Assembly: GCA_016927815.1 (NCBI GenBank)
Contig: JAFGLY010000114.1
Coordinates: 20,329-84,328, forward strand
DNA from: Deltaproteobacteria bacterium
GTDB taxonomy: Bacteria > Myxococcota_A > UBA796 > JAFGLY01
Direction of reading: 5' to 3'
Length of the DNA: 64,000 bases
This document shows positions 42,793-63,418 of this stretch, one piece after another (the first letter of the stretch is position 1; every line of letters begins with the position of its first letter). The notes under the pieces were generated by a model. It did no database searches. It was not told the DNA's origin and worked only from the letters and a program-made list of their open reading frames with translations. The position numbers and the translations under genes are program-made.

Positions 42793-42805
42793 GGAGTCCC
42801 GGATG

Positions 42806-42840: not shown

Positions 42841-42893
42841 CCTCCTGGCCCTCGATCCGGGTTTTTCCCGTGCACCGGCCGGCCTCGGAGGGG

Positions 42894-42909
42894 TGGCACG
42901 GTTCTTGAT
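42894..42909 (+). promoter_or_regulatory. Sigma54 promoter of pilA
   Basis: TGGCAC-GGTTC-TTGAT: perfect -24 box and variant -12 box, upstream of the pilin and downstream of a sigma54 activator gene. Confidence 0.7.
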
Positions 42910-42954
42910 AGACTTCGCAGGGCGCGTGTTCACCCCCTCATCCAGGAGTACCCG

Positions 42955-48435: not shown

Positions 48436-48472
48436 TCGACCCTTCGCGACCCTTGCCGGGCGCCCGCGACGC

Positions 48473-49399
48473 CTACAGCCCCTCCAGCATCGTGCGGGCG
48501 AGGTCCCGGATCTGCTCGCTGGACGCGGGGTCGTCAGCCGCCTGCCGGTAGAGCGGGACCGCCTCGGCCGCCCGACCCCGGCGCCGGAGGAGGTCCGCCA
48601 GCAAGTAGGTGACCCGCGCGGCCTCCGCCGGGGGGCGGCCCGGCTTGCCCAGGTAGGCCCGGTACTCGGCGATGGCGAGATCCTGGAACCTGGGCTCCAC
48701 CGTGCCCACCATGAGGCGGAACCGGGCGAGGGCCTCGCGCTCCGCGTCGTCGAGGCCCAGGGTGGCGAAGGCGTCCAGGTACCGGTCACGCTGGGAGGCG
48801 TCGCCCAGGCGCTCCGCGACGCGGGCCAGGTTGTAGGTGACCTTCTTCCGATCCGCATTCGAGAGCGCCCGGGCCAGTTCCGCCTCGCCCAGCTTCAGCG
48901 TCTCGCGGGCGGCCTTGGGCCCCTCCAGCCCCAGGTACTCGCCCACGGCGCGGTCCCGCGCGAGCCAGGACGCGGTGAGGTACAGGCCGCCCACGAAGGC
49001 CTCGTCGCTTCCCAGCGCGCGGTAGAAACGGGCCGCGATGGCGTAGCGGTCCCAGGTCTCGAGCGTGGTCGGATCCCGAACCTCGGCCTGGACCTCGCGG
49101 GCCACCTCTCGGAGGCGTGCCAGCGTGGCCTCGTCGCGAGGGGTCTCGAAGTCGGTGCCGAGGAGCGTGAAGTAGTCCTTGGGACAGGTGGTGATGGCGT
49201 ACTCGCGCCACTGGCCGTGCGAGGCGTAACTGGCGAGGTCGCTGTCCCACCCGCCGAGGGTGTTCGAGGAGATCTGGACGTAGGTCCGAGCCTCTGCGCC
49301 GTCGAGCGGGCAATGTGCGACGCGCGTGGCCATGCGAGCCCCCCAGGCAGGGAGCGACAGGGCTGCGGCGAGGATCACAGGTGCGAGGCGCATGCGCAA
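48473..49399 (-). CDS. DUF2225-like protein with signal peptide and TPR-like helices
   Basis: Signal peptide; CPLDG...ITTCPKDY; YLTASWLARD; TYLLADLLRRRGR..EA. Confidence 0.7.
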   Translation of the reverse strand: MRMRLAPVILAAALSLPAWGARMATRVAHCPLDGAEARTYVQISSNTLGGWDSDLASYASHGQWREYAITTCPKDYFTLLGTDFETPRDEATLARLREVAREVQAEVRDPTTLETWDRYAIAARFYRALGSDEAFVGGLYLTASWLARDRAVGEYLGLEGPKAARETLKLGEAELARALSNADRKKVTYNLARVAERLGDASQRDRYLDAFATLGLDDAEREALARFRLMVGTVEPRFQDLAIAEYRAYLGKPGRPPAEAARVTYLLADLLRRRGRAAEAVPLYRQAADDPASSEQIRDLARTMLEGL

Positions 49400-49405
49400 T
49401 GCCGA

Positions 49406-50095
49406 TCAGTCCCTCACGATCGCGTCCAGAACCGGCTCGTGGTCCTCGAGGAAGCGGCGGACCCGGACGGGATCGAAGGCGGGGTGGACCTTGAAGACAG
49501 TGGAGCCAGCGTAGACGAAGTTGCCACCGATGCAGAACGGCTGGGTGCCGGGGTTGCGGCCCAGCAGGGTGCGGCCCCGAGCCAGGCCCGCCTGGTCGAT
49601 GAGGCGGATCTCCTCCTCGCGGGAGGCGAACGCGTGGACGGGGTGGTGGAACCGGATGCCGTGCTTCGCGTAGAAGGCACGGAAGAACTCCAGCGACACC
49701 GGCATCTGCTCCACGTAGTAGGGAGTGTCGCGCGAGGATCCGTCGGCCGCATCCTCGATATCACGAGCCCGGCACCAGCGGATCTGGGCCGCGTGCATGG
49801 CCGCCTTGCAGGACAGGCACCAGACGAAGCGGGAGCCGTAGGTGCGCCGCAGGGTGAGGAGGCGGCCCCGGACCAGCCGATCCATGTCCGCCCGGGCCGG
49901 CTCGATCTGGTGGGTGACCCGGCCGGGGAACCGCGCGAGCAGGCGCGACGCGGATGTGCGGGATCCCTCGACGAAGACCACGCCGTGCCCGATGTCGAAG
50001 GTCAGCAGGTGGACCCGGTCGAAGGTCTCGAGGAGGCGAAGCGTCCCGGCCGTGGAGTCCACACCCCCCGAGAAGAGAAAGGCGACCTCGCTCAT
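49406..50095 (-). CDS. PP-loop (adenine nucleotide alpha-hydrolase) enzyme, copy 2
   Basis: Start re-called at MSEVAFLFSGGVDST; CLSCKAAMH, DGSS, EQM, QPFC. Confidence 0.82.
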   Translation of the reverse strand: MSEVAFLFSGGVDSTAGTLRLLETFDRVHLLTFDIGHGVVFVEGSRTSASRLLARFPGRVTHQIEPARADMDRLVRGRLLTLRRTYGSRFVWCLSCKAAMHAAQIRWCRARDIEDAADGSSRDTPYYVEQMPVSLEFFRAFYAKHGIRFHHPVHAFASREEEIRLIDQAGLARGRTLLGRNPGTQPFCIGGNFVYAGSTVFKVHPAFDPVRVRRFLEDHEPVLDAIVRD

Positions 50096-50943
50096 CCGCC
50101 CTCCACCAGCCGCCGGAGGCGGCTGCCGGCCGGGTCGGCCACGAAGTCCTGGACGAGCCGGCGCGCGCGTCCGACCTTCTTTGCGTAGAACGCCTCGACC
50201 TCGCGCCGGTACCGGGTCATGTCGTGGCGCTCCAGGTAGAGCCAGCGGGCCCAGAGGTTGAAGAGCACCATCTGGTAGCACCGACCCTGGATGGTCTTGT
50301 CGTAGGGCGTGCCCTTGATGACACGGGCCGGCAGGATGCCCAGCTCGTACAACTCGTCGCCGGTGGTCCGCTGCACGCTGGCCTGACGCTCGGCGCGGGC
50401 GGGGCCGAGGCCCCACACCGAGGAGCCGAACTCGATGCCCTGTTCGTCGTCGTACCGGAAGACCGGGTTTTCGTAGCGGATCCGGGCGTCCGCGTACATC
50501 GCCCGGAACATGTCCAGGACCTCGATCATCTGCTCCGGGAAGATCACCATGGCCCGGTTGGAGCCGTCCCACACGTTCCCCACGCCCGCGTCGTGGCAGT
50601 AGACGATCGTGCGCAGGTGAAAGGCGAGCTTGCACAGCCCGCAGGTGGTCAGGACCATGAAGCCGTGCCTGAGGACGTCCTCGAGGTAGCTCTCGTAGGA
50701 GACGTGGCTAAAGAGGCGATCCACGTTTTCGATGGGGGGCCTCACGAAGCGATCCGGCCCGAAGCGCTCCTTGAGCTTGCGGACGTGGAGTTCGGAGTTC
50801 TGGACGTCCGTCATGCCGAAGCGGCGGTAGGTGAGGAGGTGGACCTCTGCGAACCGCTCGGCCGCACGCACCGCGGCGAGCGTGGAGTCGCTCCCCCCCG
50901 AGAACAGGAGGGCCACACGGTCAGCGGGGCTCGATGCCGGCAT
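50092..50943 (-). CDS. PP-loop (adenine nucleotide alpha-hydrolase) enzyme, copy 1
   Basis: VALLFSGGSDST; CGLCKLAFH, DGSN, EQM, QGRC. Confidence 0.85.
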   Translation of the reverse strand: MPASSPADRVALLFSGGSDSTLAAVRAAERFAEVHLLTYRRFGMTDVQNSELHVRKLKERFGPDRFVRPPIENVDRLFSHVSYESYLEDVLRHGFMVLTTCGLCKLAFHLRTIVYCHDAGVGNVWDGSNRAMVIFPEQMIEVLDMFRAMYADARIRYENPVFRYDDEQGIEFGSSVWGLGPARAERQASVQRTTGDELYELGILPARVIKGTPYDKTIQGRCYQMVLFNLWARWLYLERHDMTRYRREVEAFYAKKVGRARRLVQDFVADPAGSRLRRLVEGG

Positions 50944-51085
50944 CGGGGCGCACCCTGTAGAAACGGGGAGGGACGAGGTTGGCCACGCGGCCCAACAGCT
51001 CCGAGTAGACGATCCGGGCCCGCCACGGGAGGACGAGTCCCAGCGCCGAGGCCACGAAAGCGATGCCGATCTTCAGGGGTCTCAT
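50921..51085 (-). CDS. Small hydrophobic protein (54 aa), absent from the ORF track
   Basis: Hand translation MRPLKIGIAFVASALGLVLPWRARIVYSELLGRVANLVPPRFYRVRPDAGIEPR*; GC3-rich codons; overlaps the PP-loop start by 23 nt. Confidence 0.6.
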   Translation of the reverse strand: MRPLKIGIAFVASALGLVLPWRARIVYSELLGRVANLVPPRFYRVRPDAGIEPR

Positions 51086-51161
51086 GCGGTTAGGGGCTCC
51101 GACCGGGCACCGGCACCGTCGGAGCGGTACGTCCTGGCCCGAGACCCCTCACCATACATCC

Positions 51162-53042
51162 ATGGCCGCCCCGATGGTAGTGCCGGGTTCATCGTCGGAT
51201 GTCAGGTCGGTCCCCCGCGAGGGGATCGCGGGCTGGGGCTTCCACGCGGGTGCCCTCGTGTCCGGGCTCGTGGTCGCGGTGGCCGCCACCTTTCCCCTGG
51301 TCGCGCACCCGCTGGACCACCTGCCGGGTGCGGCCATGGCCGGAGGCCTGTCGCATGCCTGGCGGGCGTGGTGGACATGGATCGCCGTGGCGGTGCGCCA
51401 CGAAAACCCGGCCTGGACCGACCTCCTCAACTTCCCGGCCGGATTCCCGGTGGGCTTCCACCTCGGCAACGTCCTGGACGTGCTGCTCGTGCTTCCGATC
51501 ACGGGCATCGCGGGTCCCGTGGCGAGCGCGGTCGCGTGGTGCCTGGGATCGCTCGCGCTGTCGACGTGGGCGGCAGCCTGGCTCGGGCACAGGACCGGAC
51601 TGCCCGCCCCCATCGCCGTGCTCGCGGGCCTCCTGTGGGCGTTCGCCCCCCATCACCTGGCCTTCCTCATGGGCGGGGCCTACGAGAACCTCGCCAGCCC
51701 CTTCCTGCCGCTCCTCCTCGTGGCCCTCCTGGACCTGCTCGACCCGGATCTGCCGGCCGGCGTCCTCGGCCGTGCGGGCCGGGCCGCTGGCGTGGCCGGG
51801 TGCCTCTTTGGCCTGTCGCTCACGGTCTGGTTCTCCGGGCTGGTGGCAGGGCTCCTCGCAGGCCTCGTGGTAGCGGCGCTCCTCACCGTCCACCGACGGG
51901 CCGTACTGCCCGGCGCGGCCTGGGCGCTCGCAGGCCTCGCGGTGGGTGCCGCGGTCACTTGGGCCGCCTCCCGGGTCCTCCTGCCCATCGTCCCCTCGCC
52001 GCTCGGGCGCATGACCGTCCGCTCGGCGCCCATGGACAGCCTGTGTCGGGCGTGGCTCCATGGCCTGCCGGTGGACGCCGTCCTGCCCTCGGGCATGCTC
52101 TGGCTCAACCACCACGTCCTGGGGGGGGTGGCCGTGCTTGCCCTCCTGGGCGCCATGAGCCGCAAGGGTCGCTTCTGGCTCCTCCTGGCCGTGCCCTTCC
52201 TGCTCGACGCGGCCCTGCCCGAGACCTGGCTGAACGGCTCTTTCCAGACCCCCGCCATCCTCCGGGGGGTGAAGCCGCACCTCCAGACGCTCCTCGGCAG
52301 CGGGGAGCGTCGCCTGTTCCCCCTCCATCTCGCCCTCGCCCTGGCCGCGGGCCACGGTCTGGCCTGGGGTCTCCACCGCATCCGGGCCAGCTTGCGCGTC
52401 ACCCGGGCAGCCGTGCTCCTGGCCCTCGTCGCATGGGTCGCCGAACAGCGCCTCCTCGGCCCGATCCCGCTGCCTGTGCCCTGCTTCGAGGCCCGGACCG
52501 GGGCATGGACGGCCGAGGTGGCCCGAGGTCCGGCGGGCGCGGTCCTCGACGTCCCGATCCTGCTGGAGGGGTCGGGCGTCCCGGGCTGGGTGGTCAAGGG
52601 GATTCACAGCCGGTACATGTTCGACCAGACCGCGCACGGCCGGCCCATCTTCACGGCCACCGGGTCGCGCTTCGTCATGAACGAACGCCAGCTTCCGGTT
52701 CAGGATCCGCTGGTGCGTGCGCTCCTGCCCTTCGGCCGCGGGGTCCTGGCGGCCCGGACCGGACCTGTCGAGGATCTGCCTGGGGCGCCGCAAGACCGCC
52801 GGGGCCCCTGGAACCGAGCCACCGCGGGCTGGACCCCCGCCGGCCTCCAGGCAGCAGGCTACGCGTGGGTGGTCCTCCACGAGGCGCTCCTCGACCCCTG
52901 GGACGCCACCTTTCTCGAGGCCGCACTGGAGGACCTCCTGGGCCCCCCCCTCGCCCCGGGCGAAGGTGTCCTCCTCTTCGGCGTCCCGGATCCTGGACCC
53001 CACGAGCCGATCGTCGTCGCCCCCGGCCGCAAGGGACGATAG
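51162..53042 (+). CDS. Multi-pass membrane protein, GT-C/YfhO-like putative glycosyltransferase
   Basis: About 10-12 TM segments; TDLLNFPAG, AFAPHH, GAVLDVP, YMFDQTAHGRPI. Start uncertain. Confidence 0.72.
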   Translation: MAAPMVVPGSSSDVRSVPREGIAGWGFHAGALVSGLVVAVAATFPLVAHPLDHLPGAAMAGGLSHAWRAWWTWIAVAVRHENPAWTDLLNFPAGFPVGFHLGNVLDVLLVLPITGIAGPVASAVAWCLGSLALSTWAAAWLGHRTGLPAPIAVLAGLLWAFAPHHLAFLMGGAYENLASPFLPLLLVALLDLLDPDLPAGVLGRAGRAAGVAGCLFGLSLTVWFSGLVAGLLAGLVVAALLTVHRRAVLPGAAWALAGLAVGAAVTWAASRVLLPIVPSPLGRMTVRSAPMDSLCRAWLHGLPVDAVLPSGMLWLNHHVLGGVAVLALLGAMSRKGRFWLLLAVPFLLDAALPETWLNGSFQTPAILRGVKPHLQTLLGSGERRLFPLHLALALAAGHGLAWGLHRIRASLRVTRAAVLLALVAWVAEQRLLGPIPLPVPCFEARTGAWTAEVARGPAGAVLDVPILLEGSGVPGWVVKGIHSRYMFDQTAHGRPIFTATGSRFVMNERQLPVQDPLVRALLPFGRGVLAARTGPVEDLPGAPQDRRGPWNRATAGWTPAGLQAAGYAWVVLHEALLDPWDATFLEAALEDLLGPPLAPGEGVLLFGVPDPGPHEPIVVAPGRKGR

Positions 53043-53074
53043 AATGGCGGGTCCCGTACCCCCGAAGGGGCCCG

Positions 53075-54778
53075 ATGCCGGCCGACGACCTGGTCCTGGG
53101 TATTTCCGACGACTACGTCAGCAACGTCGCCCTCTTTCAGGGCGGTCGGCCCCTGTTCGCCGCAGCCAACGAACGCTTCACCCGAAAGAAGGGAGACGCC
53201 GGGTTCCCCGCCGAGGCGCTCGGGCAGGCGCTCGACCATGGGGGGGTGCGTCTGTCCGACGTGGACCGCCTCGTCATCGCCAACCGGACCCACTTCGTCT
53301 ACCGGGTCATGCGGGCCCAGTTCAAGGACTACAAGCACGACTTCTTCAACATCCAGCAGAAGCTCTACTGCAAGTACCACGATCTCGTGGAGGCGCTCCC
53401 GGCCTTCGGGTCCGTGGTGGGGGTCCTGAACCGAGCGCTGCTCACCGCCAAGACCCGCACCCGCGTCCTCCTGTGCGACCACCACACCGCCCACGCCGCC
53501 GGGGCCGTGTATTCCTCGGGGTTCGATCGTTGCCTGGCCGTCACGGTGGACAACCTGGGTGACGGCTTCTCCGCCAAGGTCCACACCTGGCAGGACGGGC
53601 GCCTCGAGTACCTGTGGGGCTCGCGGGCCAGCGATTCCCCGGGGCAGTTCTACGGCGAGATCACCCAGCTCCTGGGCTTCAACCCGCTGCGTCACGCCGG
53701 CAAGGTCACGGGCCTCTCGGCCCGGGGAGACCCCGAGCCCGCCATGCCGATCATGAAGGAGCTCTTCTTCCTCTCCCCGGATCGCCGGCGGTTCGGCATG
53801 ATGCCCTCCTGGCAGCGCTGGAAGGACCGCGGCCCCTACTTCCGGCTGGGCCTGTTCTCTCCCGAGGACATCGCCGCAGCAGCCCAGAAGCGGCTCGAGG
53901 ACGTCATCTCCGGCTTCGTGGCCCATGCGCTCGAGGTCACCGGCCACAACCGGATCGCCCTGGCTGGAGGGTGCGCCGCGAACGTGAAGATGAACCTGGT
54001 GCTCAAGCAGTTGCCCGGGGTGGAGGCGCTGCACGTCCACCCGGCCATGAGCGACGAGGGCCTGGGCTTCGGGGCCGCGGCCTGGTTCCTCCTCCAGAAG
54101 GGTATCGCTCCACGGACGCTCGACACGGTCTTCCTCGGTCCCGGGTTCTCGGAGGCGGAGGTCGAGGCTGCGCTCGCCAAGGGGGGCGTCCCCTCGATGC
54201 GGCCCCGGGACATGGCCGACACCGTGGCAGGTCTGCTCGAGGCGGGCCACGTTGTCGCCCGGTGCGACGGCCGCCTGGAGTACGGCCCCAGGGCGCTCGG
54301 CAACCGCAGCATCCTCTACCGGCCCGACGACCCCAGCGTCTCCGACTGGCTCAACGAGAAGCTTCGCCGTACCGAGTTCATGCCCTTCGCCCCCGTGACT
54401 CTGTGGGAGGACGCAGAGGCCTGCTACGACGCGACGGCCGGGGCTCGAGAGACCGCGCGCTTCATGACCATGGCCTTCCCCTGCACGTCGGGCTTCGCCC
54501 GTCTCTGCCCCGGGGTGGTCCACGTGGACGGTACGGCGCGGCCACAGCTCGTCCGTCGCGAGGAGTGCCCGGAGTACTACGACATCGTGGCCGCCTACAA
54601 GCGCCGCACGGGTCTGCCGTCCCTCATCAACACGTCCTTCAACATGCACGAGGAGCCCATCGTGAACGGCCCTTCAGACGCCGTGAACGCCTTCCTCGCC
54701 GCCGATTTGGACTACCTTGCCATCGGACGCCGCCTCGCCTGGAACCCGGCGCGGCCCGCGCTCGGGGAGCGGTTCTGA
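53075..54778 (+). CDS. Carbamoyltransferase (NodU/CmcH/TobZ family), copy 1
   Basis: HHTAHA, GKVTGL, LAGGCAANV, EYGPRALGNRS, MPFAP, VHVDGTARPQ, INTSFNMHEEPIV. Confidence 0.92.
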   Translation: MPADDLVLGISDDYVSNVALFQGGRPLFAAANERFTRKKGDAGFPAEALGQALDHGGVRLSDVDRLVIANRTHFVYRVMRAQFKDYKHDFFNIQQKLYCKYHDLVEALPAFGSVVGVLNRALLTAKTRTRVLLCDHHTAHAAGAVYSSGFDRCLAVTVDNLGDGFSAKVHTWQDGRLEYLWGSRASDSPGQFYGEITQLLGFNPLRHAGKVTGLSARGDPEPAMPIMKELFFLSPDRRRFGMMPSWQRWKDRGPYFRLGLFSPEDIAAAAQKRLEDVISGFVAHALEVTGHNRIALAGGCAANVKMNLVLKQLPGVEALHVHPAMSDEGLGFGAAAWFLLQKGIAPRTLDTVFLGPGFSEAEVEAALAKGGVPSMRPRDMADTVAGLLEAGHVVARCDGRLEYGPRALGNRSILYRPDDPSVSDWLNEKLRRTEFMPFAPVTLWEDAEACYDATAGARETARFMTMAFPCTSGFARLCPGVVHVDGTARPQLVRREECPEYYDIVAAYKRRTGLPSLINTSFNMHEEPIVNGPSDAVNAFLAADLDYLAIGRRLAWNPARPALGERF

Positions 54779-54779
54779 C

Positions 54780-56477
54780 ATGTACGTCCTGGGCGTCAAC
54801 GAGTTGTACCACGACTGCTCTGCCGCGCTGGTGGAGAACGGCCGGCTCGTGGCCGTGGTGGAGGAGGAGCGTCTCGACCGCGTGAAGCACACGCCCGGTC
54901 TGTGCTGGGGCGGGGACGCCCCCCGTCGTTCGATGGCATGGTGTCTCGACGCGTTCGGCGTCCGAGACGACCAGGTGGCCGCAGTGGCCCTCACCTACGA
55001 CATGAACGCCTATCTGGCGATCAAGACCATCGTGGACGCGGTGGTGTCCAACGTCCGGCGCATGCGGATCCGCGATATCGTGAGCCAGCGGATCCGCGGC
55101 GGGGATCACGCGGCCAACGTCGTCCATGGCAACATCGCGGGCTACTTCGGCAAGCGCAAGGCATGGATCCACGAGATGCGGAGGCGGTTCGGCACGGTCC
55201 TGGAGATCCCGCACCACCGTTGCCACGCGTCCAGCACGTTCCGCCTCTCGGGCTTCGATCGGGCCAACATCCTGGTGGTGGATGGCCTCGGCGAGGACGA
55301 CTCCACCTCGCTCTTCGCGGGCGAGGGTGCCACGATCCGGGGGCCTTTCGAGACCTGGAACCAGTACCAGTCCCTGGGCATGCTCTACAAGACGGTCACC
55401 TTTCTCCTGGGGTTCGGGTACTTCGGGGACGGCAAGACGATGGGGCTGTCCTCCTACGGGCAGTTCCGCGAGGCGTTCGGAGACATCATCGTGCCCACAC
55501 GCCAGGGCTACCGCATCCGGCCGGAGCGGCTCCGGAGGCTCTCGCCCTACGCCCGACGCGGCCCGGACGCACCCATCACCCAGGACCACAAGGATATCGC
55601 CTTCACCATCCAGACCCAGCTCGAGCAGGCCGCGGCGTCGCTCGCCACCCGGCTCCACCGGGACACCGGCTACCGGAAGCTGTGCGTGGCGGGGGGCGTG
55701 GGCTTGAACTGCAACATGAACGCCGTGCTGCGTCGGCTGCCCTTCGTGGACGACCTGTTCGTCCAGCCCGGAGCCATGGACATGGGGACCGCCATCGGAG
55801 CGGCCCTGGAGGCGAGCGCCATGATGGGCGTTGCGCCCGGCGAGCGGCTCGAGCACGTCTACTACGGACCCGAGTACCCGGCCGACGAGGTCCGGGCCGC
55901 GATCCTGAACGCTGGGCTCACCCCGAATCCCCGGCCCGAGGGCGACCTGCTGAAGGAGGCCGCACGCCTCGTCCACGAGGGCAAGGTGATCGGCTGGTTC
56001 CAGGGCCGCCTCGAGTTCGGGCCCCGTGCCCTCGGCAACCGTACCCTCGTGGCCGCGCCCGTGAGCGTCGAGATCCGTGATCGCGTCAACCGGATCAAGC
56101 AGCGGGAGCTGTGGCGGCCGCTCGCTCCGGCCGTGCTGGCCGAGGCCGCGGACCACTGGTTCGAGGATGCCGCTCCCAGCCCTTTCATGACCCTCACGTT
56201 CCACTTCCGGCCCGAGGTGAGGGAGCGGGTGCCCGGGGTGGTCCACGTGGACGGCACCGCCCGGGTCCAGACCGTGCACGCCGAGACCAATCCACGCTTC
56301 CACGCCCTCATCCGAGAGTACCAGGCCCTCTCCGGTCTGCCCCTGGTCATCAACACCTCGTTCAACCGCCGGGTGGAGCCCATCGTCTGCACCCCCAACG
56401 AGGCGATCGCCACCTACCTCGCGACCGAGATGGACGCCCTGGTCCTGGGCGATCACCTCCTGGAGAAGACCGCGTGA
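54780..56477 (+). CDS. Carbamoyltransferase (NodU/CmcH/TobZ family), copy 2
   Basis: LGVNELYHDCSAAL, EEER..R.KH, HHRCHA, GKTMGL, EFGPRALGNR, HVDGTARVQ, NTSFN. Confidence 0.94.
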   Translation: MYVLGVNELYHDCSAALVENGRLVAVVEEERLDRVKHTPGLCWGGDAPRRSMAWCLDAFGVRDDQVAAVALTYDMNAYLAIKTIVDAVVSNVRRMRIRDIVSQRIRGGDHAANVVHGNIAGYFGKRKAWIHEMRRRFGTVLEIPHHRCHASSTFRLSGFDRANILVVDGLGEDDSTSLFAGEGATIRGPFETWNQYQSLGMLYKTVTFLLGFGYFGDGKTMGLSSYGQFREAFGDIIVPTRQGYRIRPERLRRLSPYARRGPDAPITQDHKDIAFTIQTQLEQAAASLATRLHRDTGYRKLCVAGGVGLNCNMNAVLRRLPFVDDLFVQPGAMDMGTAIGAALEASAMMGVAPGERLEHVYYGPEYPADEVRAAILNAGLTPNPRPEGDLLKEAARLVHEGKVIGWFQGRLEFGPRALGNRTLVAAPVSVEIRDRVNRIKQRELWRPLAPAVLAEAADHWFEDAAPSPFMTLTFHFRPEVRERVPGVVHVDGTARVQTVHAETNPRFHALIREYQALSGLPLVINTSFNRRVEPIVCTPNEAIATYLATEMDALVLGDHLLEKTA

Positions 56478-58180
56478 GCGTCGTCCTCGGCCTGAACGAG
56501 TTCTTCCACGACACGGCCGCGGCCCTCGTGGTGGATGGCCGCCTGGTGGCGCTCATCGAGCAGGAACGGCTCGACCGGCGCAAGCACGCCGAGGGCTTCG
56601 CCCTGCTCGGGCCGCCGCCCTGGGAAGCGATCCGCTGGTGCCTGACGCGCGCGGGCCTCTCCTTCCGTGACGTCGACCGCATCGCGGTCTCCTTCGACGC
56701 CGACGCGCCCCGGGCGCTCGGCATCCTGGCCGGGATCGTCCGCGGGAACCTCGAGCGGGCCTCTGTCCGGAACACGCTACGGAACCGCTTTCAGCTCGAG
56801 GACCCCGCCCTGAGGTTCTTCGGTGGACTCACCCTGGGCATGGCGCGACGCCGGGCCTTTCTCGAGGACCTGTCCCGGCGGTGCGACGCGCCGGTCGAAG
56901 TCGTGAACCACCACCTCGCGCATGCGGCCAGCGCGTTCTTCCCCTCGGGCTTCGACGATGCCGCGATCGTCGTGCTGGACGGACAGGGCGACGCGTGCCC
57001 CACGTCCCTCTGGGAGGGCCGGGGCGACCGGCTCGTGCTCAGGGACCTGGAACCGGATCCCGAGAACTCCCTGGGGATCCTCTACCGGGCCATCTCCCTC
57101 GCGCTCGGCTTCACGTTCATGGACGCGGGCAAGACCATGGGCCTGGCCGCCTGGGGCCGAGCCCGCGAGCCGTACCTGTCCATGCTCCGACCCGAGGGCG
57201 ACCGGTACACGATCGACTGGCCGCTGGTCAAGCGGATCACGCGGCACCACGCCCGCTACTCGGGCGAACTCCAGGACGTGCACCGGGACATGGCCGCCTC
57301 CGTGCAGCAGCGCCTGGAGGAGGTGGGCGTGCGCCTGGCCCGCCGAGCTCGGGTCCTGGCGCGAAGCCCCCGGATCTGCCTGGCGGGCGGGGTAGCGCTC
57401 AACTGCAATATGAACGCCCGGATCCTGACGGACGAGGGGACGGAGGGCATCTGGGTCCAGCCCGGGGCCATGGACATGGGCTGCGCGCTCGGCGCCGCGC
57501 TGGTGGCGGCCCAACGGGCCGGGGATCGCCTCGAACGCGGGTTCGACGTCTACAGCGGCACCGCCTGGTCCGCCGCCTCCATCGAGGCCGCCCTTTGCCA
57601 GCGGGGTCTCGCCTTCCACCGCGTGGAGGATCCAGCCGACGCGGCCGCGGAGCGGCTCGCCCGCCGCGAGATCGTGGGCTGGTTCCAGGGCCGCACCGAG
57701 TTCGGCCCCCGCGCGCTCGGCAGCCGCTCGATCCTGGCCAACCCCGACCGCGCGGAGACGCGCGACCGCACCAACCGCGTCAAGCAGCGGGAGCTGTGGC
57801 GACCGCTCGCTCCCGCGATCCTCGAGGAGAAGGCGAGCGAGTGGTTCGAGGATGCGGCACGGTCCCCGTACATGACGCTCACGTTCCGCTTCCGGCCCGA
57901 CAGGATCCCGCTCGTCCCCGCCGTGGTCCATGCCGACGGCAGCGCGCGTGTCCAGACCGTGAACCGTACGGACCACCCCGAGTTCCGTCGATGCATCGAG
58001 CGGTTCGAGGCGCGAACGGGCATCCCCATGGTCATGAACACGTCCTTCAACCGCCGGGGAGAACCCATCGTGCACACGCCGGAGGAGGCCCTGGCCTCTT
58101 TTGAGGCGCGGGAGGAGATGGACTGCCTTGTGGCGGGCCCCTTCGTCGTAGAGCGAACGCCCGGGAGCAAGACCCCGTGA
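56474..58180 (+). CDS. Carbamoyltransferase (NodU/CmcH/TobZ family), copy 3
   Basis: GTG start overlaps the copy 2 stop; FFHDTAAAL, HHLAHAASAF, GKTMGLA, EFGPRALGSRS, NTSFN. Confidence 0.94.
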   Translation: MSVVLGLNEFFHDTAAALVVDGRLVALIEQERLDRRKHAEGFALLGPPPWEAIRWCLTRAGLSFRDVDRIAVSFDADAPRALGILAGIVRGNLERASVRNTLRNRFQLEDPALRFFGGLTLGMARRRAFLEDLSRRCDAPVEVVNHHLAHAASAFFPSGFDDAAIVVLDGQGDACPTSLWEGRGDRLVLRDLEPDPENSLGILYRAISLALGFTFMDAGKTMGLAAWGRAREPYLSMLRPEGDRYTIDWPLVKRITRHHARYSGELQDVHRDMAASVQQRLEEVGVRLARRARVLARSPRICLAGGVALNCNMNARILTDEGTEGIWVQPGAMDMGCALGAALVAAQRAGDRLERGFDVYSGTAWSAASIEAALCQRGLAFHRVEDPADAAAERLARREIVGWFQGRTEFGPRALGSRSILANPDRAETRDRTNRVKQRELWRPLAPAILEEKASEWFEDAARSPYMTLTFRFRPDRIPLVPAVVHADGSARVQTVNRTDHPEFRRCIERFEARTGIPMVMNTSFNRRGEPIVHTPEEALASFEAREEMDCLVAGPFVVERTPGSKTP

Positions 58181-59238
58181 TCGCCCCCGTACGGACCCTC
58201 TGGCGGGGATTCGGGCGCCGGGGTCCGCTCTACGCGATGGTGCAGGTCACGGCCCGATGCAACCTGCGCTGCCGCATGTGCCAGGTCTGGACGTTGGAGC
58301 ACCAGGGCGGGGAGGAACTGCCCACCCGTCGGTACCCAGAGATGGCCCGCATCTTCTCCGAGGCCGGCATCCAGGTGGTCACCCTCGCGGGGGAGCCGTT
58401 CCTGAGGGACGACCTCGCCGAGATCGTGGCCGCGTTCGCCGAGCGAGGGCTCTCGGTCCGCATCCAGTCCAACGGCACGCTCGTCACGCGCGAGCGGGCC
58501 GATGCCGTGGTGGCCGCAGGCCTTCGCGGGATCTCCATCTCGCTCCACTCGCTCGACCCGGCCCGCATGGCGTGGATCGAGGGCCGCGAGGGTGTGCTCG
58601 ACGAGGTGCTGGCGGGCGTGGAGGCCATCCGGGCGGCGACCCGGGGGCGACGCCGTTTCCTGCGCTTCCTCAATGCGGTCCTCTTCCAGGGCAACCTCGA
58701 GGAAATCCCCGCTCTGGTGACGTATGCGGCACGCCAGGGCTTCCGCCTGTCGGTCAGCCCCGTCCACGTGTCCAGCCTGCGGACCGAGGAGCGCCAGTTC
58801 GTGCCCCGGCTCGGCGAGGGGCTCGCGCTCCGGCCCGAGGATCGCCCCCGGCTGGAGGCCGTCTCGGCGTTCCTCCTCGAGCAGCGGCGCCACAGCCGCA
58901 CGGTCCTCAACTCCTCGGCCTTCCTGCGGATGCTGCCCCGGTACGTGGACGGCGAGCCGCTGCCCTGGTCCTGCCTGGCCGGCACGCTCTACGCCTTCGT
59001 GGATCACCTCGGCCGGGTGGCGGCCTGCCACGACCTGCCCCCCGTGGGGAGCGTGTTCGACCCCGAGGTGATCCGGACCCTCGTGGCCGGGGATCTCGGC
59101 GGCCGCAGCCGGGCGGATCGCGCGGCGTGCCCGGGCTGCCTCCTTCCGTGCTGGACCGAGCTGTCCCTGCTCTTTTCCCACCCCGGGGCCTTTCTCGAAG
59201 GCGTCGAGGCCAACCTCCCGCGGGTGCGTGCATCATGA
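58177..59238 (+). CDS. Radical SAM enzyme with C-terminal SPASM/twitch-like Cys motifs
   Basis: CNLRCRMC, GEPFLR, SNG; C-terminal CLAG...AACH...CPGCLLPC. Confidence 0.9.
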   Translation: MIAPVRTLWRGFGRRGPLYAMVQVTARCNLRCRMCQVWTLEHQGGEELPTRRYPEMARIFSEAGIQVVTLAGEPFLRDDLAEIVAAFAERGLSVRIQSNGTLVTRERADAVVAAGLRGISISLHSLDPARMAWIEGREGVLDEVLAGVEAIRAATRGRRRFLRFLNAVLFQGNLEEIPALVTYAARQGFRLSVSPVHVSSLRTEERQFVPRLGEGLALRPEDRPRLEAVSAFLLEQRRHSRTVLNSSAFLRMLPRYVDGEPLPWSCLAGTLYAFVDHLGRVAACHDLPPVGSVFDPEVIRTLVAGDLGGRSRADRAACPGCLLPCWTELSLLFSHPGAFLEGVEANLPRVRAS

Positions 59239-60692
59239 GATGTGCCGTTCTCATTCCCGAGTGGCACGTCGAGGAGATCTTCCTCTCGGCGTTTGCACGG
59301 TCCATGGGGTCGTACCAGGAGCCCTCGGGCACGCTCTACGTGGCCGCGATGCTCGAGAAGGCCGGACACGAGGTTCTCTTCGCGGATGGTGCCTTGTTGA
59401 CGAACGAGGAGATCGTGGCCCGGATCGCGCCGGGTCGACCCCGTTGGGTGGGAATGTACGTCTGCGCCGTGCTCTGGCCCTCGGCCCAGCGGTTGCTCAC
59501 CGCCCTTCGGGCCGCCCTGCCCGACGCCGTGCTGGCCATCGGCGGGCCCTGGGCCGCCACGATGCCTCGCGAGAGCCTGGAGGCGTGCCCCGCGCTCGAC
59601 CAGGTCTTCACGGGGGAGGGCGAGGAGGCCAGCGTCGAGGCGCTCGCCGCCCTGGAAGCGGGGATCGAGCCCCGCCAGGTCCGCGGCCTGGTGTTCCGGG
59701 ATCGGGACGGCACCCTGGTGGACACCGGCTGGCGCGACATGATCGAAGACCTGGACGCCCTTCCCTTCCCGGCGCGCCACCTTCTGGGCGAGGACATCCA
59801 GCGGTGCGCGCTGCCACCGGGGGGCTACCGCGCACGGCCCGTGGCGCACCTCATCGCCTCCCGCGGGTGTACCAACCGCTGCATCTACTGCTTCCACATG
59901 GAGCGCAAGCGGGGCATCCGGTACCGGTCGGCCGCCAGCATCGTGGACGAGGTGGAGACCTGCGTCTTCCAGTTCGGCTTCCGCGAGGTCCGCTTCCTCG
60001 ACGACAACTTCACGGGCGACCGAGAACGCGTCTTCGAGATCTGCGACCTGCTCGAGGCCCGCCGGCTCACCATCCCCTGGTACGTGTCCTCCCGCGTGGA
60101 CACGGTGGACTTCGAGATGCTGACGCGCATGAAGCGGGCCGGCTGCTGGGCCATCCTCTACGGCATCGAGACCGGCGTCCAGAAGAACCTCAATGCCATC
60201 GGCAAGCACGTCACGCTCGAACAGATCCGGTCTGCGGTCGCCATGACCAGGAAGGCCGGGATCGAGATGTTCCTGCCCTTCATGTTCGGCATCCCGGGGG
60301 AGACGTACGAGGAGGGCCTGCAGACGATCGACTTCGCCATCGAGCTGGACCCCTACTACGCGAACTTCAACACGCTCACGCCCTTTCCCGGCACCTGGCT
60401 GTGGGACCACGGGGACAGGCTGGGCCGCATGTCCCGGGATCCCGCCCGCATGAACTTCCAGGCCGCGGCCTTCGTGCCCAACACCATGACCGAGGCCCAG
60501 ATCGTCGACTTGAGGCGCATCGCCTTCCGGCGGTTCTACAGTCGACCCCGGTTCATGGTTCGCTGGCTCCGGGGGGCCACCAACCGCCACGTGATTGGCG
60601 CCCTGATCCGCGGCATCCCCTCCTTCGCCACGCTGTGGCTCCGGCCGGACGCCTTCTGGAACGCACCCGAGCAGCCCGCCGGCGACCCCTAG
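59235..60692 (+). CDS. Cobalamin-binding radical SAM enzyme
   Basis: N-terminal B12-binding-like domain (LYVAAML, IGGPWAT, GEGE); ASRGCTNRCIYC, DDNF, YGIETG, FMFGIPGET, TPFPGT. Confidence 0.92.
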   Translation: MRCAVLIPEWHVEEIFLSAFARSMGSYQEPSGTLYVAAMLEKAGHEVLFADGALLTNEEIVARIAPGRPRWVGMYVCAVLWPSAQRLLTALRAALPDAVLAIGGPWAATMPRESLEACPALDQVFTGEGEEASVEALAALEAGIEPRQVRGLVFRDRDGTLVDTGWRDMIEDLDALPFPARHLLGEDIQRCALPPGGYRARPVAHLIASRGCTNRCIYCFHMERKRGIRYRSAASIVDEVETCVFQFGFREVRFLDDNFTGDRERVFEICDLLEARRLTIPWYVSSRVDTVDFEMLTRMKRAGCWAILYGIETGVQKNLNAIGKHVTLEQIRSAVAMTRKAGIEMFLPFMFGIPGETYEEGLQTIDFAIELDPYYANFNTLTPFPGTWLWDHGDRLGRMSRDPARMNFQAAAFVPNTMTEAQIVDLRRIAFRRFYSRPRFMVRWLRGATNRHVIGALIRGIPSFATLWLRPDAFWNAPEQPAGDP

Positions 60693-61372
60693 CTCCGGTT
60701 CTCCCTGGGCCAGGTTTCCTCTCGGAAGCGCCGGATGATGAAGGCGATCCGGTCGAGCTGCTCCTGGATCTTCTCGAGACGCCGGGTGACGGGCTCGGGA
60801 AGATCGGGGCCGGTGGAGATCATCTCGAGCAGTCCCATGGCCACGGTGAGCGGCTGGTTCAACTCGTGGGCCAGCTTCCGGCCCTGCGCCTGGTCCCCCA
60901 TGCGCTGCTCGGCCTCGATGGCTCGACGGGTGGCTTCCTCGAGCTTCTCCTGGAGCTTGTTCTCCGTGCCCAGATCCTGGAGGAGCACCACCGTGGACAC
61001 CATGTCCCCGTCCAGGTTCCGCACCGCGACCCCGTAGAGTCGACTGGGGAGGGGTTTGCCGGCCTTGTCCCGCATGTCCAGGTCAAACCTGCACCCCTGG
61101 CCCTGCTTGTCCTCGACGAGCGCCTCTCGGACGCGCAGGGTGTCGTCCGGGTCGACGTAGTAGTCGCTGTCGCGCTCCTCGCCCCACGGGCCCCAGGTGC
61201 AGCCCAGGCGCGTTCGGGCCGCAGGGTTGCCCCCGATGAGGAACCCGTCGGCATCCATCGAGAGCACCGGGAAGGGAAGGATGCTGAGCAGGGCCAGGGC
61301 CGCTTCGGACGACAGCGGCAGGACGTCCTCCTCCTCCCCATCGAGGTCGAAAGGCGGCGTGCGTGGCGGCAT
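60689..61372 (-). CDS. PAS plus HisKA protein lacking an ATPase domain
   Basis: PAS-like region (NPAAR..LG), then LAHELNQPLT; the ORF ends soon after the dimerisation helices. Confidence 0.75.
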   Translation of the reverse strand: MPPRTPPFDLDGEEEDVLPLSSEAALALLSILPFPVLSMDADGFLIGGNPAARTRLGCTWGPWGEERDSDYYVDPDDTLRVREALVEDKQGQGCRFDLDMRDKAGKPLPSRLYGVAVRNLDGDMVSTVVLLQDLGTENKLQEKLEEATRRAIEAEQRMGDQAQGRKLAHELNQPLTVAMGLLEMISTGPDLPEPVTRRLEKIQEQLDRIAFIIRRFREETWPRENRS

Positions 61373-61381
61373 GCAGGCGTT

Positions 61382-63318: not shown

Positions 63319-63418
63319 CGTCACCTCCGCCGCTCGGGGACGGCCCCCTCTAGCCCGTTCCCCGATGGCGGGGGAACCGCCGTCCGACATACAGGGGGGT
63401 CCTGCGGGGATTCGAACG

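What the first reader, a model, noticed from the sequence alone, without database searches (positions are those of the whole stretch)
49406..60692. Candidate undescribed biosynthetic/tailoring locus: three carbamoyltransferases, two radical SAM enzymes, two PP-loop enzymes and a GT-C-like membrane protein
Seen: two divergent arms. The left arm is a 54-aa ORF followed by two PP-loop genes. The right arm is a GT-C-like membrane protein, three full-length NodU/CmcH-type carbamoyltransferases, an rSAM-SPASM-like enzyme and a B12-rSAM enzyme; the last five genes are tightly coupled (a 1-nt gap, then 4-nt overlaps). No PKS, NRPS, terpene synthase or nucleotide-sugar genes are present in the window. 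Established: TobZ/NodU enzymes O-carbamoylate sugars and other hydroxyls, and B12-rSAM enzymes often methylate unactivated atoms. I do not know a characterised pathway with three tandem carbamoyltransferases plus this enzyme set. Inference: the locus builds a multiply carbamoylated, methylated or thiolated unit that the membrane enzyme attaches to a lipid-linked glycan, glycolipid or surface protein, or it modifies the small peptide.
Basis: partly seen in the sequence, partly recalled or inferred. Interest (0 to 1): 0.82.

Follow-up and report, generated by a model that had tools for sequence, protein, structure and literature searches.

The report
Conserved carbamoylation-thiolation tailoring gene cassette
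An eight-gene set (three carbamoyl-adding enzymes, two sulfur-inserting-type enzymes held by a tiny membrane protein, and two radical enzymes) recurs in several uncultured bacteria and probably decorates a membrane-bound sugar, though its product is unknown.

Summary
All nine genes are at the stated coordinates, with a 1-nt gap and then three 4-nt overlaps.

The interpretation needs three corrections:
1. The conserved unit is eight genes: small ORF, PP1, PP2, CT1, CT2, CT3, rSAM1 and rSAM2. They keep the same order in 4 other loci at 55-89% identity with unrelated flanks. A fifth locus is cut short.
2. The GT-C-like membrane protein has a GT-C fold but is optional. It is present at 3 of 6 informative loci and belongs to a multi-copy family.
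3. The 54-aa ORF is not a peptide substrate. It belongs to a conserved small hydrophobic protein family (LPWRxRxxYSE motif) that sits beside the PP-loop gene even in distant loci, and it is fused to the PP-loop domain in other organisms.

The PP-loop enzymes resemble YcfA, the thioamide-forming enzyme of 6-thioguanine synthesis, more than QueC or LarE. Their wider relatives sit beside SufS-like cysteine desulfurases and B12 radical SAM enzymes.

Best reading (about 0.4): membrane-associated tailoring of a sugar-type substrate. No hopanoid pathway is present. I found no description in print.

The parts
50921..51085 (-). Small hydrophobic protein, 54 aa, with the LPWRARxxYSE motif. Inferred membrane-anchor partner of PP1.
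   Evidence: No Pfam or NCBIfam hit. It is conserved upstream of the PP-loop gene: a strict motif search found it in 22 of 60 sources, and TPR-tailed variants appear in 6 more. Alignment A5 has L19, P20, R24, E29 and G32 invariant. dN/dS is 0.13-0.45, with differences mostly at third codon positions. The module is fused N-terminally to the PP-loop domain in P0088, P0130 and P0160. Complex prediction with PP1 gave weak support: score 0.39, best control 0.00.
50092..50916 (-). PP1, a YcfA-like PP-loop ATP pyrophosphatase (274 aa). It has SGGSDS and four invariant cysteines: C92, C95, C107 and C213.
   Evidence: A profile search of solved structures finds YcfA (9kq6) at E 1e-12 and QueC only at 0.03. 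The predicted structure has pLDDT 86. Its 20 matches at E up to 0.001 are all YcfA chains (E about 1e-8, TM by target up to 0.78), and the next hit is at 3e-3.
49406..50095 (-). PP2, a second YcfA-like PP-loop ATP pyrophosphatase (229 aa), 33% identical to PP1. It has SGGVDS and invariant C93, C96, C108 and C188.
   Evidence: YcfA matches at E 9e-16 over residues 6-164. An orthologue lies next to PP1 in L013, L015, L016 and L017.
51258..53042 (+). GT-C-fold polytopic membrane protein. Alternative starts are 51162 and 51063. It is an optional neighbour, not part of the core.
   Evidence: No Pfam hit. The model has pLDDT 75 and pTM 0.82. The first 12 listed Foldseek PDB matches are all GT-C enzymes (AglB, STT3, AftA, ArnT, DPY19, Pmt, EmbB), with E 1e-3 to 0.3 and TM 0.27-0.49. 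Atlas neighbours carry DUF6311 or PMT_2. The own genome has 6 further contigs with paralogues (10 matches). It is absent at L013, L015 and L016 and present at L017 and L023. The Asp of the wider family's first-loop GNDTWNH motif is not kept in this copy.
53075..54778 (+). CT1, a NodU/CmcH/TobZ-type carbamoyltransferase (567 aa).
   Evidence: Carbam_trans_N 3e-30 and Carbam_trans_C 2e-54. It has its own five-locus clade with 100/100 support. Orthologues are 61-89% identical, against 31-32% to CT2 and CT3.
54780..56477 (+). CT2, a carbamoyltransferase (565 aa).
   Evidence: TobZ matches at E 4e-87, GdmN at 3e-85 and NovN at 3e-81. Its clade has 100/99 support and is sister to CT3.
56474..58180 (+). 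CT3, a carbamoyltransferase (568 aa), 43% identical to CT2.
   Evidence: Its clade has 100/100 support.
58177..59238 (+). rSAM1, a radical SAM enzyme with a cysteine-rich, SPASM/twitch-like C-terminal part (353 aa).
   Evidence: Radical_SAM 2e-21. C28, C32 and C35 are invariant, as are C266, C284, C318, C321 and C325. The nearest solved relatives are PqqE, BlsE and MoaA. The orthologue group is tight: 21 clusters at 52-84% identity, then a drop to 38%. Its closest paralogue lies directly after a DegT-type sugar aminotransferase in 18 of 20 relatives' loci.
59235..60692 (+). rSAM2, a B12-binding radical SAM enzyme (485 aa).
   Evidence: B12-binding 3e-16 and Radical_SAM 1e-20. The best NCBIfam matches are HpnJ at 189 bits (cut-off 578) and BchE at 178 (cut-off 481), so it is an equivalog of neither. 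The nearest solved relative is AprD4 at 9e-28. It is adjacent in L013, L014, L015 and L016. In G003 (the genome of L017) the 68% orthologue lies on another contig.
48473..49399 (-). DUF2225/TPR protein downstream of PP2. It is a neighbour only in the closest relative.
   Evidence: DUF2225 2e-8. It is kept in L013 only, at 80% identity.

Best explanation
The locus is a conserved eight-gene tailoring cassette. It works at the cytoplasmic face of the membrane on a sugar-type substrate, such as a lipid-linked or nucleotide-linked sugar of an envelope glycan or glycolipid.

Shown:
- The eight genes travel together.
- The three carbamoyltransferases are old, separately conserved paralogues.
- The PP-loop enzymes are YcfA-like.
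- The small ORF belongs to a partner and fusion family of those enzymes.

Inferred:
- CT1, CT2 and CT3 each make carbamoyl-AMP from carbamoyl phosphate and ATP and carbamoylate three different positions.
- PP1 and PP2, held at the membrane by the small protein, adenylate an amide-type carbonyl and replace its oxygen with sulfur. This is YcfA-like chemistry. The four invariant cysteines may hold an Fe-S cluster or zinc.
- rSAM1 does radical chemistry on the sugar skeleton.
- rSAM2 methylates or rearranges an unactivated carbon.
- In some genomes a GT-C-fold enzyme encoded beside the cassette transfers the finished unit to an acceptor outside the cytoplasm. In others a paralogue encoded elsewhere could do so.
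For: Cassette:
- The order small-PP1-PP2 | CT1-CT2-CT3-rSAM1-rSAM2 holds in L013, L015 and L016 at 54-90% identity, and in L017 without an adjacent rSAM2.
- L014 is cut short but shows CT3-rSAM1-rSAM2.
- The flanks differ between loci.
- rSAM1 orthologues occur in 4 of 41 related genomes, all in one family.
- Each CT forms its own clade with 100/99 support or better.

Chemistry:
- TobZ and GdmN match CT2 at E about 1e-85.
- YcfA is the best match to PP1 and PP2 by sequence and by fold. Its mechanism is in PMC12494993 (abstract and Discussion read).
- PP1's closest non-orthologous relative (L024, 52% identity) and 10 of 26 wider loci of at least 7 kb have a SufS-like gene nearby that keeps the catalytic cysteine.

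Membrane:
- Small-protein family and fusions.
- Weak complex support: 0.39 against 0.00, from my own alignments, partner pLDDT at least 58, runs agreeing in at least 63% of contacts.

Sugar:
- TobZ/NodU-type enzymes mostly act on sugars.
- rSAM1's nearest paralogue is paired with a DegT aminotransferase in 18 of 20 loci, with a nucleotidyltransferase nearby in the own genome.
- AprD4, BlsE, DesII and BtrN are among the solved relatives.
- A GT-C-fold gene sits at 3 of 6 loci.
- Wider loci hold GT2, PMT_2, GT28, DegT, polysaccharide deacetylase and epimerase genes.
Against: - No glycosyltransferase, flippase, nucleotide-sugar or polyprenyl gene belongs to the conserved core. The GT-C gene is missing at half the informative loci.
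- The sugar inference for rSAM1 rests on a paralogue only 33-39% identical.
- Sugar-related genes in the wider loci are scattered, each in only a few loci.
- Some wider loci hold an HxsB peptide maturase.
- YcfA itself acts on a soluble nucleotide and lacks the CxxC of PP1 and PP2.
- No sulfur-donor gene is in this cassette.
- Nothing here shows the substrate, the product or any activity.
- The complex prediction is only weak support.
Confidence: 0.4

Rival explanations
1. The cassette makes a soluble secondary metabolite, for example an aminoglycoside- or nucleoside-like compound carrying carbamoyl, thio and C-methyl groups. The small protein only places the enzymes near an exporter.
For: - The best solved relatives come from antibiotic pathways: TobZ, GdmN, NovN, AprD4, BlsE and YcfA. 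YcfA and MoaA act on GTP.
- The cassette is patchy, in 4 of 41 relatives, as accessory clusters often are.
Against: - There are no scaffold-forming genes (cyclitol synthase, PKS, NRPS or glycosyltransferase) in the core or the window.
- No transporter or resistance gene is conserved with it.
- The membrane-anchor module is universal in the family.
Confidence: 0.2
2. It modifies a peptide or protein (RiPP-like). The substrate would be either the small ORF itself or a precursor encoded elsewhere. The modifications would be Lys/Ser/Tyr carbamoylation, backbone thioamidation and radical SAM cross-links or methylations.
For: - SPASM-like and B12 radical SAM enzymes are common peptide maturases. PqqE is rSAM1's top solved hit.
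- A NodU-like enzyme carbamoylates lysine in a thioamidated RiPP (PMC13174530, passages read).
- HxsB passes its cut-off in wider loci L033, L036 and L042.
- The small ORF sits where a precursor would.
Against: - The small ORF is conserved along most of its length, including its hydrophobic helix.
- It is found beside PP-loop genes only 37-44% identical to PP1.
- It is fused to the enzyme in other organisms. An enzyme module is not a cleavable precursor.
- None of the 50 window genes scanned in Pfam, nor the flank ORFs of L014-L017 scanned, matched a YcaO or RRE family. The only peptidases found (M20, S8, aspartyl) lie far from the cassette, and I saw no second small ORF kept across the five loci.
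Confidence: 0.12
3. It modifies a membrane lipid other than a glycolipid, for example a hopanoid side chain or another polyol or amide lipid.
For: - rSAM2's best NCBIfam match is HpnJ, and rSAM1 weakly matches HpnH and Tes.
- The membrane anchor fits a lipid substrate.
- GDSL/SGNH acylhydrolase-like genes lie near the PP-loop gene in 16 of 26 wider loci.
- The genome has about 28 B12 radical SAM genes.
Against: - No squalene-hopene cyclase is present (18 bits against a cut-off of 431), and no HpnH is over its cut-off, in a genome that is 97% complete.
- The HpnJ and HpnH scores are far below their cut-offs.
- I recall no carbamoyltransferase with a plain lipid substrate.
Confidence: 0.1
4. It matures a metal cofactor. 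One version makes a thiocarboxylate or cyanide-type ligand, by analogy with HypF/HypE. Another acts with the neighbouring LarB/LarC nickel-pincer genes, with PP1 and PP2 serving as LarE.
For: - LarC (61382-62566) and LarB (62554-63324) lie next to the cassette.
- HypF belongs to the same carbamoyltransferase superfamily, and LarE is a PP-loop sulfur inserter (recalled knowledge).
Against: - A canonical LarE (277 bits, cut-off 150) lies on another contig. The LarE family does not hit PP1 or PP2.
- The flank beyond the radical SAM genes is not LarB/LarC in the other loci. Behind rSAM2 in L016 lie a methyltransferase and a thioesterase, and in L014 an ORF with no family. Behind rSAM1 in L017 lies an ORF with no family.
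- LarE structures do not appear among PP1/PP2 matches at E up to 1.
Confidence: 0.04

Closest known systems
TobZ / NodU / CmcH / GdmN O-carbamoyltransferases
   Same: Two-domain architecture: a Kae1-like N-terminal part and a YrdC-like C-terminal part. Similarity is strong (E about 1e-85). HxxxH, GPRALGNR and NTSFN-type motifs are visible in all three copies (what these motifs mean is recalled, not tested).
   Different: There are three separately conserved paralogues in tandem. None reaches the NodU equivalog cut-off (106-177 bits against 1000). The acceptor is unknown. They are coupled to PP-loop and radical SAM enzymes, not to a known antibiotic or Nod-factor pathway.
YcfA-YcfC thioamide system of 6-thioguanine biosynthesis (Erwinia amylovora; PMC12494993)
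   Same: YcfA is the best match to PP1 and PP2 by sequence and by fold. In the wider family the PP-loop enzyme is paired with a SufS-fold PLP enzyme, just as YcfA is paired with YcfC.
   Different: PP1 and PP2 have a CxxC motif plus two more invariant cysteines that YcfA lacks at the CxxC place. The wider family's PLP partner keeps the desulfurase cysteine, which the paper says YcfC lacks (paper Discussion). This cassette has no PLP partner, has two paralogous PP-loop genes, and has a membrane-anchor partner.
Arn-type pathways (ArnB/A/C/D/T) that tailor a polyprenyl-phosphate-linked sugar and transfer it with a GT-C enzyme
   Same: The logic I infer is similar: a sugar is tailored at the membrane and then transferred by a GT-C-fold enzyme. 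ArnT is among the fold matches. DegT, deacetylase-family, GT2 and epimerase-fold genes occur in the wider loci.
   Different: No Arn orthologue is in the core. The comparison is recalled knowledge plus scattered neighbours, not a tested relationship.
StdF-containing RiPP cluster (PMC13174530)
   Same: [quoted passage not shown]
   Different: In that cluster the thioamide comes from YcaO-TfuA, the carbamoyltransferase is fused to a peptidase, and a precursor peptide with a C-terminal motif exists. None of these is seen here.

Membership tests
NodU/CmcH/TobZ carbamoyltransferase family | Carbam_trans_N and Carbam_trans_C domains over their gathering scores | tested here: met
   Met by all three proteins. 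CT2 matches TobZ at E 4e-87.
NodU (NCBIfam equivalog NF041651) | Score over the curated cut-off of 1000 bits | tested here: not met
   Scores are 106, 177 and 172 bits. They are family members, not NodU itself.
NodU/CmcH/TobZ carbamoyltransferase family | Carbamoyl-AMP formation and transfer to an acceptor | not testable with these tools
   Needs an enzyme assay.
YcfA-like PP-loop thioamide synthetases | PP-loop SGGxDS motif and YcfA as closest fold | tested here: met
YcfA-like PP-loop thioamide synthetases | Adjacent PLP-dependent C-S lyase partner (YcfC) | tested here: not met
   None is in the cassette or its four orthologous loci. SufS-like partners occur only in the wider family.
QueC (7-cyano-7-deazaguanine synthase) | Score over the TIGR00364 / PF06508 cut-offs | tested here: not met
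   Scores are 18-21 bits against 150 (TIGR00364) and 22 (Pfam). Only the PP-loop aligns.
LarE (nickel-pincer sulfur inserter) | Match to TIGR00268 | tested here: not met
   The family hits contig C13 at 277 bits and does not hit this locus.
SPASM/twitch radical SAM enzymes | CX3CX2C plus a C-terminal cysteine-rich auxiliary-cluster domain | tested here: inconclusive
   CX3CX2C and five invariant C-terminal cysteines are present. Pfam SPASM (PF13186) does not match.
B12-binding radical SAM enzymes | B12-binding domain followed by a radical SAM core | tested here: met
   PF02310 3e-16 and PF04055 1e-20.
HpnJ / hopanoid modification | Equivalog cut-off and presence of hopanoid synthesis in the genome | tested here: not met
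   189 bits against 578. No squalene-hopene cyclase or HpnH is present.
GT-C glycosyltransferases | GT-C membrane fold | tested here: met
   The first 12 listed PDB fold matches are all GT-C enzymes.
GT-C glycosyltransferases | Conserved acidic residue in the first outer loop | tested here: inconclusive
   The wider family has GNDTWNH. This copy reads AGGLSH at that place.
RiPP precursor peptide (for the small ORF) | A free-standing peptide with a leader and core that is cleaved and modified | tested here: not met
   It is conserved as a hydrophobic module and is fused to the enzyme in P0088, P0130 and P0160.

The most novel reading that the evidence does not exclude
The cassette makes thiocarbamoyl groups or their dehydrated relatives. 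The three carbamoyltransferases would install carbamates or ureas on a membrane-bound sugar. The two membrane-anchored YcfA-like PP-loop enzymes would then adenylate the carbamoyl oxygen and swap it for sulfur. That would be an enzymatic route to thiocarbamates, which I have not seen described.

More broadly, the pair of small anchor and PP-loop enzyme would define a widespread membrane-bound carbonyl-to-thiocarbonyl machinery. The family has 127 clusters at E up to 1e-30. It spans loci of 25-74% G+C and is usually embedded in clusters rich in B12 radical SAM genes.
Probability: 0.12. Interest if true: 0.85.

Novelty: new variant of a known kind. Interest (0 to 1): 0.62.

Why it matters
All five enzyme families are known. 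What is new is the fixed combination, with three diverged carbamoyltransferases, and the finding that YcfA-like enzymes come with a dedicated small membrane partner. I found neither in print.

If the cassette makes a multiply carbamoylated, sulfur-bearing envelope sugar, that would be a new kind of surface decoration in uncultured Myxococcota-like bacteria. It would also be a second biological setting for PP-loop thioamide-type chemistry, which has so far been worked out for 6-thioguanine.

The wider family could guide mining of B12 radical SAM-rich clusters whose products are unknown.

Tried and rejected
- Rfam scan of 44000-64000: only one sub-threshold hit, and no riboswitch.
- Promoter and terminator scan: nothing above the shuffles.
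- LarE reading of PP1 and PP2: rejected.
- Hopanoid reading: rejected.
- QueC reading: rejected, because only the PP-loop aligns.
- Idea that the membrane protein is core: rejected.
- Idea that the small ORF is a RiPP core: rejected.
- Literature searches found no description of such a cluster. I searched 'DUF7411' (0 papers); carbamoyltransferase, B12 radical SAM and PP-loop; carbamoyltransferase, cobalamin radical, gene cluster and thioamide; thiocarbamate and carbamoyltransferase; and YcfA, thioamide and radical SAM. Subscription journals are mostly outside that library.
- Sequencing runs: a metatranscriptome library of the same study as the likely source sample holds eight short contigs (167-372 nt, 0-1 mismatches) inside PP1, CT1, CT2, the CT3/rSAM1 junction and the end of rSAM2. 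Depth is no higher than in a low-coverage DNA run, and DNA carry-over cannot be excluded, so I do not count this as expression. Parts without cover mean nothing.
- I could not run antiSMASH, MIBiG or cblaster.
- The NCBI titles of L014-L017 ('Enterobacterales', 'Rickettsiales') do not fit about 70% G+C or the neighbouring genes. I did not rely on them.
- The ORF caller used for the neighbourhood families is crude. It missed the PP-loop ORF in L075, and it also failed to call PP2, CT1 and rSAM2 in the window stretch used there, so the counts are approximate.

Full report
**1. What is in the sequence**

The window is about 71% G+C, so most long open frames are spurious. I chose genes by third-position GC and a codon-usage score and fixed starts from in-frame start codons.

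On the minus strand:
- Small ORF 50921-51085 (54 aa).
- PP1 50092-50916. Its GTG start is 4 nt after the small ORF's stop. The Atlas holds this version letter for letter.
- PP2 49406-50095, with a 4-nt overlap with PP1.

On the plus strand:
- A membrane protein ending at 53042. Public records start it at 51258.
- CT1 53075-54778.
- CT2 54780-56477.
- CT3 56474-58180.
- rSAM1 58177-59238.
- rSAM2 59235-60692.

Pfam and NCBIfam confirm:
- Three full-length carbamoyltransferases.
- A radical SAM enzyme.
- A B12-binding radical SAM enzyme.
- Two PP-loop proteins, which match QueC/DUF7411 only over the SGGxDS motif and below the cut-offs.

I scanned 50 of the 55 genes I called in the window. I found no PKS, NRPS or terpene synthase.

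**2. The genes form a conserved cassette, but of eight genes, not nine**

rSAM1 has a tight orthologue group. Of the 56 proteins found, 21 clusters are 52-84% identical, and the next is 38%.

I used an alignment of that group to scan one genome per species. It returned 10 loci, five of them orthologous (L013-L017, 55-82% identity). I then ran tblastn with all my proteins:
- L013, L015 and L016 have small-PP1-PP2 divergent from CT1-CT2-CT3-rSAM1-rSAM2 in the window's order.
- L017 has the same order but lacks an adjacent rSAM2.
- L014 is a short contig showing CT3-rSAM1-rSAM2.
- In the genome of L017 (G003), a 68% orthologue of rSAM2 lies on another contig.

The flanks differ from locus to locus. 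They include a MopE-repeat protein, methyltransferases, a thioesterase and unknowns. Only the closest relative, L013, shares DUF3604 and DUF2225.

Among 41 related genomes, rSAM1 orthologues occur in 4, all within one family (4 of its 10 genomes). The cassette is therefore rare and patchy.

A maximum-likelihood tree of 23 carbamoyltransferases gives CT1, CT2 and CT3 a clade each, with five loci in each and support of 100/100, 100/99 and 100/100. CT2 and CT3 are sisters. CT1 is nearer two other paralogues of the same genome. The three copies are old and individually maintained, which argues for three different jobs.

**3. The membrane protein**

- It has no Pfam family.
- A model built from 16 relatives has pLDDT 75 and pTM 0.82.
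- The first 12 listed Foldseek matches in the PDB are all GT-C glycosyltransferases: AglB, STT3, AftA, ArnT, DPY19, Pmt and EmbB. E-values run from 1e-3 to 0.3 and TM from 0.27 to 0.49.
- The Atlas points to DUF6311- and PMT_2-bearing clusters.

So 'GT-C-like' is right at the level of fold.

It is not part of the core:
- It is absent between the small ORF and CT1 in L013 (a same-genus relative), L015 and L016.
- It is present in the window, L017 (40% identity) and L023 (68%).
- It belongs to a family with full-length paralogues on six other contigs of this genome, none beside a carbamoyltransferase.
- The Asp of the wider family's first-loop GNDTWNH motif is not kept in this copy.

**4. The small ORF**

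It is protein-coding. Between close relatives most differences fall on third codon positions, and dN/dS is 0.13-0.45.

It is also a family. A strict motif search (P[WYF][RK]x[RK]xx[YFW][SAT]ExxG) over the window and 59 loci found it in 22 sources, always immediately upstream of the PP-loop gene. This includes loci where that gene is only 37-44% identical to PP1. In two loci where I re-set the PP-loop start (L046, L048) the two genes overlap by 4 nt. Six more loci carry a version with a TPR-like tail downstream of the PP-loop gene.

In the wider family the protein is 58-69 aa. It has a hydrophobic helix, the invariant stretch LP-x-R/K-x-R-xx-Y/F-S/A-E-xx-G, a second hydrophobic helix and a charged tail.

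A profile search of 1.84 billion representatives found 643 PP1 relatives at E up to 1e-3, of which 127 are at E up to 1e-30. I read ten of the longer ones:
- P0088, P0130 and P0160 carry this module fused to the N-terminus of the PP-loop domain. P0114, P0118 and P0139 carry looser variants.
- P0097 carries a different N-terminal membrane module that starts with a double cysteine.

A complex prediction of PP1 with the small protein gave weak support:
- The median score was 0.39 (runs 0.44, 0.35 and 0.39), and the best of three controls scored 0.00.
- Partner pLDDT was at least 58, and the runs agreed in at least 63% of contacts.
- That mark was reached by 58 of 80 solved complexes and 2 of 110 mismatched pairs.
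- Scores of 0.60 or under were reached by only 7 of the 80 solved complexes and by both mismatched pairs that passed.
- My own alignments were used, so these counts hold only roughly.

Taken with the fusions and the fixed adjacency, the small protein is best read as a membrane-anchor module of the PP-loop enzyme, not as a substrate.

**5. The PP-loop enzymes**

- Profiles of PP1 and PP2 orthologues find YcfA (9kq6) as the only substantial solved relative, at E 1e-12 and 9e-16 over about 155 residues. QueC aligns only at the PP-loop.
- The PP1 model (pLDDT 86) has 20 PDB matches at E up to 0.001. All are YcfA chains, at E about 1e-8 and TM by target up to 0.78. The next match is at 3e-3.

I read the abstract and Discussion of PMC12494993. 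According to it, YcfA adenylates the C6 carbonyl of guanine nucleotides and adds cysteine. YcfC, which has a cysteine-desulfurase-like fold but lacks the catalytic cysteine, then cleaves the C-S bond and leaves a thioamide.

PP1 and PP2 differ from YcfA. Each has four invariant cysteines, including a CxxC where YcfA has none. This may be an Fe-S or zinc site; I could not test it.

A canonical LarE lies elsewhere in the genome (277 bits), and that family does not hit this locus. PP1 and PP2 are therefore not the missing partner of the neighbouring LarB and LarC.

**6. The wider family**

A metagenome scan with the PP1 alignment gave 54 loci, spanning 25-74% G+C. I clustered their ORFs and annotated representatives.

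Among 26 non-redundant loci of at least 7 kb, the number with each gene type within 8 kb of the PP-loop gene was (the ORF caller missed the PP-loop gene in L075):

| Gene type | Loci |
|---|---|
| B12 radical SAM | 15 |
| GDSL/SGNH-like | 16 |
| SufS-like | 10 |
| Carbamoyltransferase | 6 |
| SPASM-like radical SAM | 5 |

Other features of these loci:
- The SufS-like proteins keep the RxGxHC catalytic cysteine.
- A roughly 120-aa membrane protein beginning with a double cysteine usually lies next to them.
- PP1's closest non-orthologous relative, L024 (52% identity), is followed by exactly this pair.
- Scattered further neighbours are GT2 (3 of the 88 proteins scanned), PMT_2 (2), DegT (1), GT28, polysaccharide deacetylase, an epimerase/dehydratase, MiaB-like enzymes, methyltransferases and, in three loci, an HxsB peptide maturase that passes its cut-off.

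Within the window's own genome there are about 28 B12 radical SAM genes and seven carbamoyltransferases. Three of the four other carbamoyltransferases lie within about 8 kb of a B12 radical SAM gene.

**7. What the substrate might be**

The evidence is indirect.

For a sugar:
- TobZ-type enzymes mostly act on sugars.
- AprD4, BlsE, DesII and BtrN are among the solved relatives of the two radical SAM enzymes.
- rSAM1's nearest paralogue (33-39% identical) lies directly after a DegT-type sugar aminotransferase in 18 of 20 relatives' loci I fetched. In this genome a sugar-phosphate nucleotidyltransferase gene is nearby.
- A GT-C-fold gene sits at half the informative loci.

For a membrane site: the anchor module.

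Against a hopanoid: no squalene-hopene cyclase (18 bits against a cut-off of 431) and no HpnH over its cut-off, in a genome that is 97% complete.

Against a peptide: the small ORF is an enzyme module, and no second small ORF is conserved with the cassette. A NodU-like enzyme is, however, now known to carbamoylate lysine in a thioamidated RiPP (PMC13174530, passages read), so that rival stays open at low odds.

**8. Mechanism I commit to (confidence about 0.4)**

- A sugar-type substrate at the inner face of the membrane is carbamoylated at three positions by CT1-3.
- PP1 and PP2 exchange oxygen for sulfur at one or two amide-type carbonyls. These may be the new carbamoyl groups. That last point is pure inference.
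- The two radical SAM enzymes rework the carbon skeleton.
- Where a GT-C gene is present, that enzyme passes the unit to an outside acceptor.

Shown: the co-occurrence, the family memberships, the YcfA likeness, and the anchor family and its fusions. Everything about substrate, order of steps and product is inferred.

**9. Novelty and limits**

I found no paper describing this gene set or the anchor and PP-loop pair. The library lacks most subscription journals, and supplements were closed.

All loci come from uncultured organisms. Pieces of the locus occur in one metatranscriptome library of the source study, but that does not show transcription.

I rate it a new variant of a known kind: a tailoring cluster built from known enzyme families in a fixed, undescribed combination, with a new accessory module.

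Noticed in passing
window 61382-63324 (-): LarC (Ni_insertion, E 6e-125) and a LarB-like AIR carboxylase-family gene lie next to the cassette, preceded by a short HisKA/PAS protein at 60689-61372. The matching LarE is on another contig (C13).
   Followed up: partly
G000 contig C87, about 40-55 kb (locus L115): A second cluster in the same genome is rich in radical SAM genes. It has a carbamoyltransferase (45933-47600), three B12 radical SAM genes, a SPASM-like gene, a weak HpnH-like radical SAM match (54129-54662) and a weak PP-loop match (42375-42563). Carbamoyltransferases on C106 and C168 also sit beside B12 radical SAM genes.
   Followed up: partly
loci L027, L038/L039, L043-L045, L055, L057, L060, L035/L036, L024:2073-2450: A family of membrane proteins of about 120 aa begins with a double cysteine (for example the N-terminal CCG). 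It sits next to the PP-loop and SufS-like genes and is fused to the PP-loop domain in P0097. It may be a membrane sulfur relay, and it has no Pfam or NCBIfam family.
   Followed up: partly
G000 contig C26 3123-8074 (locus L114) and L094-L113: An operon pair of a DegT-type sugar aminotransferase followed by a twitch/SPASM-like radical SAM enzyme is conserved in 18 of 20 relatives sampled. This recalls DesI/DesII. In G000 a nucleotidyltransferase gene is nearby.
   Followed up: partly
window 38576-43389 (+): A type IV pilus block in the order pilC (T2SSF), pilS-like kinase, pilR-like sigma-54 activator and a pilin with an N-methylation motif, followed by a UvrD-like helicase (43449-45557).
   Followed up: no
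window 26619-28915 (+): Trehalose-phosphatase and trehalose-6-phosphate synthase (GT20) genes overlap by 4 nt.
   Followed up: no
window 4322-6136 (-) and 11581-14700 (+): The first is a second GT-C-type protein (PMT_2 with TPR repeats). The second is a 1039-aa ORF with no Pfam family.
   Followed up: no
L033, L036, L042: Low-GC metagenome loci pack five or more B12 radical SAM genes, two SPASM-like genes, a MiaB-like gene, an HxsB maturase (436 bits, cut-off 370), a GT28-like gene and a polytopic membrane protein around the anchor and PP-loop pair.
   Followed up: partly
L014-L017 record titles: The NCBI titles call these MAG contigs 'Enterobacterales' or 'Rickettsiales'. They are 68-71% G+C, and L017 is the same stretch as G003:C150, a genome placed in the window genome's own family. 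The labels look wrong.
   Followed up: no
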